Made by a program: the position numbers and the translations under genes. Source: Oscillospiraceae bacterium (GTDB lineage: Bacteria > Bacillota > Clostridia > Oscillospirales > Oscillospiraceae). Taken from it: a stretch of 64,000 nucleotides of DNA. Below the pieces are notes generated by a model, which saw nothing but the letters and a program-made list of their open reading frames with translations, did no database searches and was not told the DNA's origin. Of this stretch, positions 46,049 to 49,571 are shown one piece after another. Position 1 is the stretch's first letter. The number at the start of each line of letters is the position of its first letter. The stretch is from the NCBI GenBank assembly GCA_017619715.1, contig JAFZRS010000008.1, forward strand, positions 14,934 to 78,933. The letters are read 5' to 3'.

Positions 46049-46088
46049 AAAAATAGACCCTGTCCCACAAGGGACAGGGTCTATTTTT
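46049..46088. terminator. Bidirectional intrinsic terminator
   Basis: AAAAATAGACCCTGTCCC-ACAA-GGGACAGGGTCTATTTTT, a perfect 18-bp stem. Confidence 0.92.
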
Positions 46089-46120: not shown

Positions 46121-46861
46121 TTATGCCGCACCGTACCGCGTTCCTCGCGTGAGCTGTTCCGCCACGGCAGCAAGAAACGCCCGGTTGCTCGGGCGGTCGC
46201 CTTCCACAGACAGCGTGCTGCCAAAGAAACGGCGCTGTACCTCCATATCGCCGTGTGCCCACGCCTGTTCCAGTGCGCTGCGGATATTGCGCTCCACGCA
46301 GGTGGCTGTGGTTCCGAACTCCCGCGCCAGCGCCGGGTAAAGCTCTTTTGTTACAGCATGTACCCGCTCCGGATTTTCCATCACCATTGCAATGGCACGG
46401 CATGTATAGTGATATCCCTTTACACACATTGGTATACCCAACGTGCGCAGTGCCTCCCGGATCATGGCGTCCCGACAGGGCGAAGAGGCGGACACCATGC
46501 CCATGGCTTTATACAGAAGACGCGGCAATTCCTCCTCGGCAAAAGGCTTGACCAGCAGATGCCGGACACCTTCTTCAATGGCACGAAGCAAAACCTGCTG
46601 TGTGGCGTGGGCTGTGACCACCACCGATACACGCACCAGACCGTCTGCCTGACGCATCAGGGAAAAGCCGTCCAGACCGTTCAGCACCACGTCCGTCACC
46701 AGTATATCCGGACGCAGCGTACGCGCCAGCTCCAGCGCTTCATCGCCGTTTCCCGTGTCCGCCACCACCTCAAAGACGCCGCCGCGCTCGATCACCGGGC
46801 GCATCAGCAGACGGTATTCCTCGTTGCTGTCCGCAATCAGTACACGGATCCGGCACCCCAT
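46121..46861 (-). CDS. Spo0A paralog (receiver domain plus Spo0A C-terminal DNA-binding domain)
   Basis: Receiver IADSNEE...VTDVVLNGLDG...VKPF; effector LGIPMCVKGYHY, VTKELYP..A and TATCVERNIRSALEQAW; AGGAGG RBS. Confidence 0.88.
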   Translation of the reverse strand: MGCRIRVLIADSNEEYRLLMRPVIERGGVFEVVADTGNGDEALELARTLRPDILVTDVVLNGLDGFSLMRQADGLVRVSVVVTAHATQQVLLRAIEEGVRHLLVKPFAEEELPRLLYKAMGMVSASSPCRDAMIREALRTLGIPMCVKGYHYTCRAIAMVMENPERVHAVTKELYPALAREFGTTATCVERNIRSALEQAWAHGDMEVQRRFFGSTLSVEGDRPSNRAFLAAVAEQLTRGTRYGAA

Positions 46862-46929
46862 GGCGTTCGTCCTCCTATCTGCTTCGTCTCCCGCCGCAAA
46901 CAACTGCCTGCGCAACGGGCGCAGAAAAT

Positions 46930-46958
46930 AAGCTACCACAATTCTTTCGGCAATGCAA
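46930..46958 (-). promoter_or_regulatory. Candidate SigA-type promoter of the Spo0A paralog
   Basis: TTGCAT-17 nt-TAGCTT with extended -10 TG. Confidence 0.5.
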
Positions 46959-46975
46959 GCAAAATTTTCACTTTT

Positions 46976-47004
46976 ATCGACAATTTATTCGACAAATATC
47001 GACA
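46976..47004 (-). promoter_or_regulatory. Three tandem 0A-box-like repeats
   Basis: TGTCGAT (46998-47004), TGTCGAA (46988-46994) and TGTCGAT (46976-46982) on the minus strand; consensus 0A box is TGNCGAA. Confidence 0.65.
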
Positions 47005-47029
47005 ATCAACCAAAAAATGACACATGTTT

Positions 47030-47058
47030 GTCTATTATCATAGACTAAAATACGTCTA
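47030..47058. promoter_or_regulatory. Candidate XRE operator half-sites
   Basis: GTCTA-N6-TAGAC-N8-GTCTA immediately upstream of the XRE gene. Confidence 0.4.
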
Positions 47059-47094
47059 CTTTTGCATACAATTTCTCTATAAGGAGTGATCTGT

Positions 47095-47337
47095 ATGCAA
47101 TTTGACAATCGTGCTGTAGGAGATACCGTTAAATCCTTGCGGAAAAAACGCGGGCTGTCGCAGGAGGTTTTAAGCGGGCTGGCAGGTATTGCCCGCACAC
47201 ATCTGACGATGATAGAACGCGGCACAAAACAGCCCAACTTTGAAACGCTGTGGCGCATTGCGCTGGCGCTGGATATGCGACCGAGCGAACTGGTAACTGC
47301 CATTGAGAAAAATACGACAGGAGAGAAACCGCTATAA
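47095..47337 (+). CDS. XRE/Cro-CI family HTH transcriptional regulator (80 aa)
   Basis: KSLRKKRGLSQEVLSGLAGIARTHLTMIERGTKQPNFETLWRIALAL; AAGGAG RBS before ATG 47095. Confidence 0.9.
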   Translation: MQFDNRAVGDTVKSLRKKRGLSQEVLSGLAGIARTHLTMIERGTKQPNFETLWRIALALDMRPSELVTAIEKNTTGEKPL

Positions 47338-47351
47338 TGGCTTCTCTCCTG
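47318..47351. terminator. Stem-loop between convergent spo0A and XRE genes
   Basis: CAGGAGAGAA...TTCTCTCCTG, 10-bp inverted repeat. Confidence 0.45.
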
Positions 47352-47374
47352 CTGTGTTATTGGTATAACTTTCC

Positions 47375-48133
47375 TTATGCCCTTCTTTGCTTCCTCTGCA
47401 AGCTCAAGCGATCGGCGATCATGGCGATGAACTCCGAATTGGTGGGCTTGCCCTTGGCGGAGTTGACCGTATAGCCGAAGTACTTTTGCAGCGTATCCAA
47501 ATCGCCCCGGTCCCATGCCACCTCGATGGCGTGGCGAATGGCGCGCTCCACCCGGGAGGCGGTGGTATCGAAGCGGTGCGCTACCTCGGGATAAAGCACC
47601 TTGGTAACGGCGTTGATGACGTCCATGTCCGCCACGGCGATCAGAATTGCCTCGCGCAGATACTGGTACCCCTTGATATGGGCAGGGACGCCAATCTCGT
47701 GGATAATGGCGGTCACCTGACGCTCCAGCGCAGGGGCGGCTTCCTCCACAGACGGTTCCTCCTGCCGCAACGCCCGGCGCATATGCTCCAGCAGCGACGT
47801 TTCGCTGACCGGCTTGGCGAGAAACGCGCACACGTCCAGCTCCGCCGCCTCCGATGCTGCACGCTCCGTGCAAAAAGCGGACACGATCAGAACCTTGGGT
47901 TCCTTTTCCAGTTCCGCACACCGGCGGATCAGTCCGAATCCGTCCAGTCCCGGCAGCACCAGATCGGTGATGAGCAACGCCGGATTCACCTGACGCACCA
48001 GTTCCCATGCCTCCATCCCGTCTCCGGCAGCGCCTGCCACCTCAAACTCCCCACTCTCTTCAATACTCTTTGTCAATAATGCCCGGAACTCCTCGCTGCC
48101 GTCGGCGAGGATCACTTTGCCCCTGTTTTCCAT
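47375..48133 (-). CDS. spo0A: Stage 0 sporulation master regulator
   Basis: Canonical effector [20 protein letters not shown]...VTKVLYP...[18 protein letters not shown]...[13 protein letters not shown]; lies downstream of spoIVB as in other spore formers. Confidence 0.96.
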
Positions 48134-48253: not shown

Positions 48254-48260
48254 TGTCGAA
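48254..48260 (+). promoter_or_regulatory. 0A box upstream of spo0A (autoregulation)
   Basis: Exact TGTCGAA about 120 nt upstream of the spo0A start. Confidence 0.55.
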
Positions 48261-48351
48261 ACTGTCCCGGAATCGTTCGACTTTTTCTGACGTGGTACAG
48301 CATGTAAAGAACCGGCACGGCGGGAAAGATCTCCCGCCGCGCCGGTTTCGA

Positions 48352-49380
48352 TCAGCCGGTCATTTTCAACATATTTTCTATGAAAATGCCGTAGCCTTGC
48401 GTGGGGTCGTTCACCAGAACGTGCGTCACCGCGCCCACAAATTTGCCGTTTTGGATAATGGGGCTGCCGCTCATGCCCTGCACAATGCCGCCCGTGGTAT
48501 CCAACAGACGCTCATCGGTGACACGCAACAACAGATCACGCATATCCTGCTTATGAGGATACAATCGAACGATCTCCACCTCATAGCTCTCCGTCTCGTC
48601 GCCGGAAACCGTGCAAAGGATTGTGGCCGGACCCAGACGCACCTCCGAAGGCGATGCCACCGGCAGCGCCTGGCCGGCGTCGGCAAAGCTGCCGTCCGCC
48701 ACGATACCGAAGATGCCGGCGCTGGTATTCGCCGACACCGTGCCTACATCGCGCTGCACGGAAAAGTCGCCTTTCAATTCACCGGGATCGCCGCGCTGAC
48801 CTTTTTTCACCGCCTTGACACTGGTTTCCATAATGGAACCGGAGCTCAAGGGCATCAGCACGTGGGTATCCACGTCTGTGATGCCGTGACCCAGCGCACC
48901 GTAATTTCCGGTGGTTGGGTCATAATAGGTCAGTGTGCCGATCCCCGCCATGCTGTCCCGGATCCACACGCCCAGACGGTATACGCCGTCGTCACACAGC
49001 AGCGGACAGGTCTCCATCACCGCCGTTTTATCGCCCCGCCGAACAGTCAGCGTAACGGGCGTATCCGCGTTCTCCTGCAAAACAGACTGCAAATGCTCCG
49101 TCGATTGGATCTCCTCACCGTTGATCCGGAGAATCAGGTCTCCTTCCTGCAAGCCGCAGTCTTCCGCGGGAGATCGCTCTCCCTCTTGCAATTCCGAGGT
49201 GGATACCACCAGCACGCCGTCGGCAAACAGCTTGATGCCGACGGCTCGTCCCATGGGGATCAACTGCCGAGGACCGCCTTCCGCCCAAGCCGGCTGCCAT
49301 TGGAGGGATAGCGCCAGCAAAATCGATAGAAGCAGTCCCGCACTCCGCCGCAAAATGGATGGTCGCCGCGTTTCATGCAT
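48352..49380 (-). CDS. spoIVB: SpoIVB serine peptidase
   Basis: [11 protein letters not shown] domain, [22 protein letters not shown] and [12 protein letters not shown]. Confidence 0.95.
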
Positions 49381-49421
49381 TGGATCACCCCTTGTTTGAT
49401 TTTCGTCGCCGGCGACAGACT

Positions 49422-49451
49422 TACTTTGCGCCAAAATGCGGCTGTTTATGA
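49422..49451 (-). promoter_or_regulatory. Possible forespore sigma (SigG/SigF-type) promoter of spoIVB
   Basis: TCATA-18 nt-CAAAGTA; spoIVB is forespore-expressed in Bacillus; weak match. Confidence 0.3.
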
Positions 49452-49571
49452 CGATCAAAATAAGGAAACAGCGGCACATTTTCATAAAAGCAAAACGCCG
49501 CGGCAAATTACGATCTCTACTCTTCGCGCCGTGCGCGGCGCAAACTCTGCGAGGCTTTTTTTGACAAGTTG

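What the first reader, a model, noticed from the sequence alone, without database searches (positions are those of the whole stretch)
46121..48133. Candidate sporulation switch: spo0A followed by an XRE regulator and a second full-length Spo0A
Seen: directly after canonical spoIVB-spo0A come a convergent 80-aa XRE gene and, divergent from it, a 246-aa Spo0A paralog bounded by a strong terminator. The paralog keeps the phosphoacceptor Asp, switch Thr and Lys. Its recognition helix is changed from [12 protein letters not shown] to TCVERNIRSALE, keeping the ER..R DNA contacts, and it has several extra Cys. Established: spo0A is normally single-copy, and XRE proteins such as SinR modulate the Spo0A network. 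Inference: a three-gene circuit in which Spo0A and the XRE protein control a second Spo0A that competes for 0A boxes, forms heterodimers, or reads a variant box, gating sporulation versus another fate. I do not know of a description of this arrangement, but a literature and database check is needed.
Basis: partly seen in the sequence, partly recalled or inferred. Interest (0 to 1): 0.7.

Follow-up and report, generated by a model that had tools for sequence, protein, structure and literature searches.

The report
Second Spo0A regulator beside spo0A
An uncultured rumen Oscillospiraceae bacterium carries, just downstream of its sporulation master gene spo0A, a diverged but intact second Spo0A whose promoter holds conserved Spo0A-binding boxes; extra Spo0A copies turn out to be common in this family, and the neighbouring XRE gene is only a recent, dispensable neighbour.

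Summary
Reading along the minus strand, the window has spoIVB, then canonical spo0A (252 aa), then a convergent 80-aa XRE gene on the plus strand, then a 246-aa Spo0A paralog (37% identical) that ends at a strong terminator.

The paralog is not strain-specific. It sits at the same position (spo0A ... paralog >< rluA-dacB) in about 11 related rumen Oscillospiraceae populations. Its tree mirrors that of their canonical Spo0A, and dN/dS is 0.16-0.30.

Every ortholog has an invariant TTGTCGA 0A box 29 nt upstream of a sigma-A-type -35 and extended -10. The window has three such boxes spaced 12 and 10 nt apart. This is the only such cluster in the 1.32-Mb genome. Spo0A's own promoter carries the same GTCGAACGA-type box. 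The most likely reading is a second-tier Spo0A driven by Spo0A~P and/or by itself.

The XRE part of the proposed three-gene circuit is not supported as a conserved unit. The XRE gene occurs only in the closest relatives, has low GC, and carries its own operator. In one relative it faces a different operon.

"Spo0A is single-copy" is wrong for this family: 58 of the first 98 sampled genomes have two or more Spo0A_C genes. Interest is modest.

The parts
48352..49506 (-). spoIVB (ORF limits; signal-transduction protease SpoIVB)
   Evidence: TIGR02860 373.8 bits (cut-off 305), Peptidase_S55 + PDZ. Lies upstream of spo0A in all related loci.
48254..48282 (-). Inverted pair of 0A boxes in the canonical spo0A promoter. 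In gene orientation these read aGTCGAAcgatt at about -150 and TTCGACAaaa at -127.
   Evidence: The block is conserved in 8 related loci. Coordinates were checked.
47375..48133 (-). Canonical spo0A, 252 aa
   Evidence: TIGR02875 263 bits, above the cut-off of 200. 75-90% identical in relatives. dN/dS 0.11.
47317..47352 (.). Bidirectional stem-loop terminator between the convergent spo0A and XRE genes
   Evidence: 14-pair stem followed by a T run.
47095..47337 (+). XRE-family (HTH_3) regulator, 80 aa. An accessory neighbour found only in the closest relatives.
   Evidence: Pfam HTH_3 54 bits, with no second domain. SlrR model 23 bits against a cut-off of 250. Present only in the window, L035, L036 and L037. 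GC 0.51, GC3 0.52. dN/dS 0.04-0.18.
47030..47045 (.). Palindrome GTCTATTATCATAGAC over the predicted XRE promoter (ATGACA, 18 nt, TAGACT). Likely the XRE auto-operator.
   Evidence: The palindrome travels with the XRE gene in L035, where the downstream neighbour is a different operon.
47062..47100 (.). Perfect 9-nt inverted repeat, TTGCATACA ... TGTATGCAA, bracketing the XRE RBS and start codon
   Evidence: I4. Function not tested.
46976..47004 (-). Three same-strand 0A boxes: TGTCGAT at 46976-46982, TGTCGAA at 46988-46994 and TGTCGAT at 46998-47004. Spacing 12 and 10 nt. The nearest box ends 17 nt and the middle, invariant box 29 nt upstream of the paralog's -35.
   Evidence: Sequence. This is the only same-strand TGTCGA pair or triple within 25-40 nt in the whole 1.32-Mb genome. 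TTGTCGA is invariant in 11 orthologous promoters.
46930..46958 (-). Paralog promoter: -35 TTGCAT (46953-46958), 17-nt spacer, extended -10 TG-n-TAGCTT (46930-46938)
   Evidence: The invariant columns TTG and TGTGnTA are in alignment A3 of 11 loci.
46907..46925 (-). Stem-loop in the paralog's 5' leader (terminator-like). Not well conserved.
   Evidence: It varies in L036 and L038.
46121..46861 (-). Spo0A paralog ('Spo0A2'), 246 aa: a receiver domain plus a Spo0A_C DNA-binding domain with a CVERNIRSA recognition helix
   Evidence: AF2 mean pLDDT 86.4. The C-domain superposes on 1LQ1 at TM 0.88-0.92, rmsd 1.4-1.8 A, and the receiver on 1QMP at TM 0.87. dN/dS 0.16-0.30.
46055..46086 (.). Bidirectional terminator (12-bp stem, T runs on both sides) shared by the paralog and the convergent rluA-like gene

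Best explanation
The 246-aa gene is a vertically inherited, diverged member of the Spo0A family, called Spo0A2 here.

Shown:
- It is an intact receiver-plus-Spo0A_C protein under purifying selection.
- It is kept at one chromosomal position, downstream of spo0A, in a small clade of uncultured rumen Oscillospiraceae.
- It has its own sigma-A-type promoter, and 0A boxes sit immediately upstream of that promoter's -35.

Inferred:
- Spo0A~P, and probably Spo0A2~P itself, binds these boxes as head-to-tail oligomers and activates transcription from a class-I-like position. Spo0A2 would then accumulate only after Spo0A is switched on.
- Spo0A2 is phosphorylated at its conserved Asp, most simply by the genome's single orphan, sensor-less histidine kinase, which would also serve Spo0A.
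- It binds 0A-like boxes through the retained Glu-Arg..Arg contacts.
- It differs in output because two helix residues are fixed differently (Arg to Cys, His to Ser) and the sigma-A-contact region is remodelled.
- It therefore acts as a second tier of the sporulation-initiation switch, either a feed-forward co-regulator or a brake.

The XRE gene is a recently acquired, self-regulated neighbour. It is not a conserved part of the circuit.
For: Architecture and fold:
- Domain calls are; the model and its superpositions are.
- D57, T83, K105 and the VER..IR motif are conserved across 20 clade members.

Conservation and inheritance:
- Orthologs at 78-87% (L035-L038) and 48-55% (L039-L044) identity all lie between spo0A and rluA-dacB.
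- The paralog clade has 100/97 support. Its internal topology mirrors the canonical Spo0A clade of the same genomes, with roughly threefold longer branches.
- dN/dS is 0.16-0.30.

Promoter:
- TTGTCGA, the -35 TTG and the extended -10 TGTGnTA are the invariant blocks in 11 orthologous promoters.
- The three-box cluster is unique in the genome. About 0.01 are expected by chance; this is my arithmetic from 402 sites.
- The same GTCGAACGA-type box is conserved in the spo0A promoter.

Genome context:
- The genome encodes SpoIVA, SpoIIGA and SpoVAC/EB.
- It has only 5 response regulators. Three are paired with kinases. Spo0A and Spo0A2 are unpaired.
- It has one orphan 272-aa soluble kinase, which is single-copy across the genus.
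- Helix alpha-1 reads EE[FY]R.LL in both Spo0A proteins.
Against:
- Perfect TGTCGAA is not enriched in the window overall: 5 found against 7.3 expected. The case therefore rests on the clustering and on conservation.
- Which protein binds the boxes is unknown.
- The sign of regulation is inferred from box position alone.
- The paralog scores below the Spo0A equivalog cut-off.
- Most 50%-identity orthologs lack six residues of the sigma-A-activating region, so it may not activate at all.
- The second Asp of the acidic pocket is missing, though it is also missing in the canonical Spo0A of this genus.
- The kinase assignment is by elimination only.
Confidence: 0.6

Rival explanations
1. One reading: spo0A, the XRE gene and the paralog form one three-gene switch. 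Spo0A and the XRE protein jointly control the second Spo0A to gate sporulation against another fate.
For: - In the window, L036 and L037 the XRE gene is divergent from the paralog. Its operator-like palindrome lies about 25 nt from the distal 0A box.
- The XRE gene is under purifying selection.
- A TTGCATACA-like repeat resembles the paralog's -35 region (I3/I4).
Against: - The XRE gene is absent from L038 and from all six more distant orthologous loci, yet the 0A boxes and promoter are kept there.
- In L035 the XRE gene and its palindrome face a membrane-protein plus sortase-anchored-protein operon instead.
- Its GC and GC3 are atypical.
- Its nearest homologs in relatives lie at other loci.
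- It has no SinR-type oligomerisation domain.
Confidence: 0.12
2. The paralog is an antagonist of Spo0A. It occupies 0A boxes or forms mixed oligomers but cannot contact sigma-A productively. It would act as a Spo0A-induced negative-feedback brake or commitment threshold, not as a co-activator.
For: - The base-contact residues are retained, while the sigma-A-activating region is altered. In B. subtilis numbering, which I derived from memory, these are S231V and V240L.
- A six-residue deletion covers positions 237-242 in most 50%-identity orthologs.
- The paralog evolves about three times faster than the canonical protein.
Against: - G227 and F236 are kept.
- The receiver domain and phospho-acceptor are conserved, which a simple competitor would not need.
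- Nothing tested here distinguishes activation from repression.
Confidence: 0.2
3. The paralog controls a regulon unrelated to sporulation, such as a stress or metabolic response. This has been suggested for the second Spo0A of C. thermocellum. On this view its position next to spo0A is only a relic of tandem duplication.
For: - Extra Spo0A_C genes are common in this family, including in lineages regarded as non-sporulating (PMC13020158).
- C. thermocellum Cthe_3087/Clo1313_0637 is repeatedly mutated in stress-adapted strains (PMC3804516, PMC4890492).
- The Arg-to-Cys and His-to-Ser changes in the helix might shift specificity.
Against: - The conserved 0A box matches the one in the spo0A promoter, which ties the paralog's expression to the Spo0A system.
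- The genome keeps core sporulation genes.
- No dedicated kinase accompanies the paralog.
Confidence: 0.15
4. The paralog is a decaying duplicate with no function.
For: - Its branches are longer than those of the canonical protein.
- It scores below the equivalog cut-off.
- One contig appeared to split the gene.
Against: - The apparent split in L037 is a run of N in a scaffold gap, not a frameshift.
- The frame is intact in all 11 loci.
- dN/dS is 0.16-0.30.
- 53 columns are invariant across the clade.
- The promoter is conserved.
Confidence: 0.03

Closest known systems
Canonical Spo0A (B. subtilis and G. stearothermophilus; TIGR02875; PDB 1LQ1, 1FC3, 1QMP/1DZ3)
   Same: - It has the same two-domain architecture and fold.
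- The phospho-acceptor Asp, the Thr and the Lys are present.
- The VER..R recognition-helix contacts are present.
- 0A boxes lie in its own promoter, as in spo0A autoregulation.
   Different: - It is only 37% identical to the genome's own Spo0A.
- It scores 156 bits against the 200-bit equivalog cut-off.
- Arg211-to-Cys and His218-to-Ser are fixed in the recognition helix. The numbering is from memory.
- The sigma-A-activating region is remodelled or partly deleted.
- It is a second copy, not the gene next to spoIVB.
Second Spo0A homolog of Clostridium (Acetivibrio) thermocellum, Cthe_3087 / Clo1313_0637
   Same: - It is a full-length, distantly related second Spo0A alongside the primary sporulation Spo0A.
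- Its function is uncharacterised (PMC3804516, PMC4890492).
   Different: - The C. thermocellum copy is not reported as adjacent to spo0A.
- Its link to 0A boxes is unknown.
Multiple Spo0A homologs of Faecalibacterium duncaniae, and the Spo0A_C expansions across Oscillospiraceae
   Same: - They belong to the same bacterial family in the broad sense.
- Three Spo0A homologs were detected in the F. duncaniae proteome (PMC13020158).
- 58 of the first 98 sampled family genomes carry two or more Spo0A_C genes.
   Different: - Those copies are scattered, and some are receiver-less.
- This clade is a specific full-length lineage, syntenic with spo0A, seen in about 8 species.
Phage-encoded truncated spo0A homologs (PMC10294663)
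   Same: They are extra Spo0A_C DNA-binding modules that could act on 0A boxes.
   Different: - The phage copies lack the receiver domain.
- This gene is chromosomal, full-length and vertically inherited.
SinR/SlrR-type XRE regulators of the Spo0A network
   Same: The window's XRE protein has the HTH_3 DNA-binding fold.
   Different: - It is 80 aa with no SinR/SinI-type oligomerisation domain.
- It scores 23 bits on the SlrR model against a cut-off of 250.
- It is not conserved with the paralog.

Membership tests
Spo0A (TIGR02875 equivalog) | N-terminal receiver plus C-terminal Spo0A_C (PF08769) architecture | tested here: met
   Response_reg 60 bits. Spo0A_C 114 bits over 104/104 positions.
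Spo0A (TIGR02875 equivalog) | Whole-protein score above NCBIfam's trusted cut-off (200 bits) | tested here: not met
   The paralog scores 155.9 bits. The neighbouring canonical gene scores 263.2 bits.
Spo0A (TIGR02875 equivalog) | Phospho-acceptor Asp, switch Thr and Lys | tested here: met
   D57 is nearly invariant. T83 and K105 are invariant in 20 clade members. The second acidic-pocket Asp is replaced by Ser/Ala, but it is also replaced (by Gly) in the genus's canonical Spo0A.
Spo0A (TIGR02875 equivalog) | Recognition-helix residues that contact the 0A box (Glu213, Arg214, Arg217; B. subtilis numbering from memory of the 1LQ1 work) | tested here: met
   V189, E190, R191, I193 and R194 are invariant. 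The flanking Arg-to-Cys and His-to-Ser changes are fixed.
Spo0A (TIGR02875 equivalog) | Fold of both domains | tested here: met
   AF2 pLDDT 86.4. TM 0.88-0.92 to 1LQ1 chains and 0.87 to 1QMP.
Spo0A (TIGR02875 equivalog) | Intact sigma-A-activating region (about residues 227-240) | tested here: inconclusive
   The G227 and F236 equivalents are kept. The S231 and V240 equivalents are changed. Six residues are deleted in most 50%-identity orthologs. The functional meaning is not testable here.
Spo0A (TIGR02875 equivalog) | Required for initiation of sporulation | not testable with these tools
0A-box (Spo0A-controlled) promoters | TGTCGAA-type heptamers near the promoter, conserved in orthologous promoters, in tandem at about one helical turn | tested here: met
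   Binding itself was not tested.
SinR/SlrR-type XRE regulators (for the 80-aa gene) | HTH_3 domain plus a C-terminal SinR/SinI oligomerisation domain | tested here: not met
   Only HTH_3 (residues 15-69) is found in 80 aa. SlrR model 23.3 bits against a cut-off of 250.
Conserved spo0A-XRE-paralog three-gene unit | XRE gene linked to the paralog across genomes | tested here: not met
   The XRE gene is present in 4 of 11 loci and directly adjacent to the paralog in 3.

The most novel reading that the evidence does not exclude
In a clade of small-genome rumen sporeformers, sporulation entry is run by a two-tier Spo0A cascade. One sensor-less orphan kinase feeds both proteins. Spo0A~P switches on Spo0A2 through a tandem 0A-box operator. 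Spo0A2 reads the same boxes but has a Cys-bearing recognition helix and an altered sigma-contact surface. It then acts as a timer or commitment device, possibly redox-sensitive, that reshapes the Spo0A regulon. This would be a natural, minimal example of a master regulator duplicated into sequential 'low-threshold' and 'high-threshold' proteins.
Probability: 0.2. Interest if true: 0.55.

Novelty: new variant of a known kind. Interest (0 to 1): 0.36.

Why it matters
Spo0A is the universal entry switch to endospore formation, and sporulation drives the transmission of gut and rumen Clostridia. In B. subtilis, graded Spo0A~P levels separate early from late targets.

A lineage that has split the job between two Spo0A proteins wired in series would show a different route to the same logic. 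Its genome has only five response regulators and one orphan kinase, so the circuit would be unusually tractable.

More practically, the work shows that extra Spo0A_C genes are the rule, not the exception, in Oscillospiraceae. Genome-based calls of 'the' spo0A, and sporulation predictions built on them, should therefore check which copy they are scoring.

Tried and rejected
2. Apparent pseudogene in L037 (a 43-aa plus a 192-aa call): rejected. The break is a 10-N scaffold gap.
3. Origin of the paralog: the free tree places it outside the genus's canonical clade. An AU test does not reject a duplication within the genus (p = 0.41). Tandem duplication versus an older paralog or transfer stays open.
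4. Window-wide enrichment of TGTCGAA: none, 5 found against 7.3 expected. Only the clustering and the conservation are informative.
5. A dedicated kinase for the paralog: none is adjacent, and the genome has no spare kinase beyond one orphan.
6. XRE as a SinR-like or toxin-antitoxin component: there is no oligomerisation domain, no adjacent toxin, and only sub-threshold NCBIfam hits.
7. Literature search for a described Spo0A-XRE-Spo0A arrangement or a 'Spo0A2': none was found. Only the C. thermocellum, Faecalibacterium and phage cases turned up.
8. 'Extra cysteines' as a conserved feature: rejected, except for the single Cys at the start of the recognition helix.
Full report
**Observation.**
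- Six-frame ORFs and profile searches confirm the layout on the minus strand.
- spoIVB lies at 48352-49506 (TIGR02860, 374 bits).
- Canonical spo0A lies at 47375-48133: 252 aa, TIGR02875 263 bits against a cut-off of 200.
- On the plus strand, a convergent 80-aa HTH_3/XRE gene lies at 47095-47337.
- Divergent from it, on the minus strand, is a 246-aa receiver-plus-Spo0A_C protein at 46121-46861, behind an AGGAGG ribosome-binding site.
- The paralog scores 114 bits on Spo0A_C over the full model but only 156 bits on the Spo0A equivalog model.
- It is 37% identical to its neighbour.
- Stem-loop terminators separate spo0A from the XRE gene (47317-47352) and close the paralog (46055-46086).
- The own genome holds exactly two Spo0A_C genes.

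**What organism.**
- Related loci come from uncultured rumen and gut Oscillospiraceae genome bins (RUG, RGIG and SIG isolates).
- The window's assembly is 1.32 Mb in 34 contigs, rated 98% complete.
- It still encodes SpoIVA, SpoIIGA and SpoVAC/SpoVAEB, so it looks like a genuine, very small sporeformer.

**Is the paralog strain-specific?** No.
- A search of 5.8 billion proteins finds a discrete clade of about 21 clusters at 46-86% identity. Identity then jumps down to 37% or less for ordinary Spo0A proteins.
- Four metagenome contigs carry 78-87% orthologs (L035-L038).
- Six species-representative genomes carry 48-55% orthologs (L039-L044), and one more has a partial copy (L051).
- In every locus the order is ftsZ-spoIVB-spo0A, then a variable 0.4-4 kb, then the paralog, then a convergent rluA-like gene and a D-Ala-D-Ala carboxypeptidase gene.
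- In a maximum-likelihood tree the paralogs form one clade (100/97). Its internal branching mirrors the canonical Spo0A clade of the same genomes (99/97), with about threefold longer paths (1.15 against 0.36 from the window to L041). That pattern is vertical co-inheritance with faster evolution.
- Pairwise Nei-Gojobori dN/dS is 0.16-0.30 for the paralog, 0.11 for the canonical protein and 0.04-0.18 for the XRE gene.
- An apparent split of the gene in L037 is a run of N in a scaffold gap.
- The free tree puts the paralog clade outside the genus's canonical clade. It sits next to another divergent Spo0A-like group that shares the CVER[AS]IRSA motif (94/89).
- An AU test does not reject an origin by duplication within the genus (p = 0.41). 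The same-strand position directly downstream of spo0A fits a tandem duplication.

**The protein.**
- Across 20 clade members the phospho-acceptor Asp is nearly invariant (one member has Glu), and the Thr and Lys are invariant.
- The recognition helix reads C-V-E-R-x-I-R-S-A with C, V, E, R, I, R, S and A invariant.
- Alignment to the solved Spo0A C-domains (1FC3, 1LQ1) is gap-free.
- The AlphaFold model has mean pLDDT 86.4. It superposes on the DNA-bound 1LQ1 chains at TM 0.88-0.92 and rmsd 1.4-1.8 A, and on the phosphorylated receiver 1QMP at TM 0.87.
- By B. subtilis numbering, which I derived from memory, the Glu213/Arg214/Arg217 base contacts are kept. Arg211 is fixed as Cys and His218 as Ser.
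- In the sigma-A-activating stretch the G227 and F236 equivalents remain. The S231 and V240 equivalents change, and most 50%-identity orthologs have lost six residues there.
- Of the 'extra cysteines', only the helix Cys is clade-wide.

**The promoter.** This is the most informative result.
- An alignment of 150 nt upstream of all 11 orthologs has only three invariant blocks. These are TTGTCGA (a 0A box), a TTG (-35) that starts 37 nt downstream of the start of the box, and TGTGnTA (extended -10).
- In the window the elements are as follows:
  - boxes TGTCGAT, TGTCGAA and TGTCGAT at 46976-46982, 46988-46994 and 46998-47004, spaced 12 and 10 nt;
  - -35 TTGCAT at 46953-46958;
  - -10 TG-n-TAGCTT at 46930-46938.
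- Genome-wide there are 402 TGTCGA sites. This is the only place in 1.32 Mb where two, let alone three, lie on one strand within 25-40 nt. My arithmetic gives about 0.01 such triples by chance.
- Perfect TGTCGAA is not enriched in the window as a whole, so the weight rests on clustering and conservation.
- The canonical spo0A promoter in the same genomes carries a conserved inverted pair, (a/t)GTCGAACGATT ... TTCGACAAAA. The first element has the same extended sequence as the box before the 50%-identity paralogs (TTTTGTCGAACGAAA).
- Boxes placed from about -54 to -82 suit activation more than repression. That inference comes from known Spo0A promoters such as spoIIG, against abrB where the boxes lie downstream of the start.
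- Other Spo0A-like genes in the family also carry 0A boxes upstream. So this is a variant of Spo0A autoregulation, not a new principle.

**Signalling context.**
- The genome has only five receiver-domain proteins. Three sit beside histidine kinases. Spo0A and the paralog are unpaired.
- Among the eight HATPase_c hits, I count three kinases paired with regulators. I also count one orphan, which is a 272-aa soluble protein with no sensor domain and no Pfam HisKA hit. I take the other four for non-kinase GHKL proteins (SpoIIAB-, GyrB- or MutL-like) from their ORF lengths; I did not check them.
- The orphan is single-copy in 22 of 24 other genomes of the genus, whether or not they have the paralog.
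- By elimination it is the best candidate phosphodonor for Spo0A, and possibly for both proteins. Their alpha-1 helices share EE[FY]R.LL. This step is inference only.

**The XRE gene.**
- It is present in the window, L035, L036 and L037. It is absent from L038 and from all six more distant orthologous loci.
- In L035 the XRE gene and its palindrome (GTCTA[T/C]GATA.T.GAC) face a different divergent operon. That operon encodes a 132-aa membrane protein and a 668-aa sortase-anchored protein, and the paralog lies 2.8 kb further on.
- XRE-less loci have a different sequence upstream of the boxes, including a CCACATATGTGG-like palindrome.
- In most of the 50%-identity group, a metallophosphoesterase gene is the divergent neighbour.
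- The XRE gene has GC 0.51 and GC3 0.52, against 0.60 and 0.67-0.75 for the two spo0A genes.
- Its nearest homologs in relatives (46-62% identity) lie at other loci.
- It has only an HTH_3 domain and is not SinR/SlrR-like.
- It is best read as a self-regulated accessory gene that happens to abut the paralog promoter in a few populations. In those populations an effect on the paralog cannot be excluded, because its palindrome at 47030-47045 is about 25 nt from the distal box.

**How unusual is a second Spo0A?**
- In 301 genomes of the same family (at least 90% complete), 278 have Spo0A_C. In my hand count of the first 98 listed, 58 have two or more copies, with up to 11 in one genome.
- Within the genus, other independent duplicates exist (G003, G012, G016, G021, G023).
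- The literature already notes a distant second Spo0A in C. thermocellum that is repeatedly hit in adaptive evolution (PMC3804516, PMC4890492). It also notes three Spo0A homologs in the Faecalibacterium duncaniae proteome (PMC13020158) and receiver-less phage copies (PMC10294663).
- I found no paper describing this clade, its CVERxIRSA signature or its wiring.
- Earlier notes of this scan describe similar 0A-box operators before other Spo0A_C paralogs. They are leads only, not evidence.

**Verdict.**
The three-gene circuit is not conserved, and the single-copy premise does not hold here.
- Most likely mechanism (confidence about 0.6): Spo0A~P and/or Spo0A2~P activates Spo0A2 through tandem 0A boxes. 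Spo0A2 then acts on 0A-like sites with a modified output.
- Whether it helps or brakes sporulation is open.
- It is a new variant of a known kind, of moderate interest.

Noticed in passing
window 48095-48125 and 46820-46850; loci L018-L044: Both Spo0A copies, and all canonical Spo0A proteins of this genus, read AD[G/S/A]xEE where other Clostridia have ADDN(R/K)E. The second Asp of the receiver's acidic pocket is therefore missing genus-wide.
   Followed up: partly
G000 contig C31:21631-22446 (outside the window): The genome's only orphan histidine kinase is a 272-aa soluble, sensor-less HATPase_c protein with no Pfam HisKA hit. It is single-copy in 22 of 24 congeners. It is a candidate Spo0A kinase in a genome with just five response regulators.
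   Followed up: partly
whole assembly G000: The assembly is 1.32 Mb at a stated 98% completeness, yet it encodes SpoIVA, SpoIIGA, SpoVAC/EB, SpoIVB and Spo0A. If the size is real, this is among the smallest putative endospore-former genomes.
   Followed up: no
L021-L032 (G003, G012, G016, G021, G023): Other species of the genus carry different extra full-length Spo0A copies (47-62% identical to the window's canonical protein). Some are near-identical duplicates on separate contigs. Spo0A duplication has therefore happened repeatedly.
   Followed up: partly
L035:715-3163: In one close relative the XRE gene faces an operon of a 132-aa membrane protein and a 668-aa Tyr/Gly-rich surface protein. 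The surface protein ends in an SPKTG sortase signal. The operon is inserted between the XRE gene and the paralog.
   Followed up: partly
L035:3195-3215, L038:~620-640, L039-L044 about 60-70 nt upstream of the 0A box: A semi-conserved palindrome of the type CCACATATGTGG / ACCATATATGGT lies upstream of the 0A boxes in loci without an adjacent XRE gene. It may be the site of another regulator.
   Followed up: no
L045-L053: Several other divergent Spo0A-like proteins of Oscillospiraceae share the CVER[AS]IRSA recognition helix. One of them, from a Faecousia bin (L053), has tandem TGTCGAA/TGTCGAT boxes before an extended -10 promoter, much like this paralog.
   Followed up: partly
window 46907-46925: A terminator-like hairpin lies in the paralog's 5' leader and is followed by TTGTTTG. 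It is poorly conserved in relatives.
   Followed up: no
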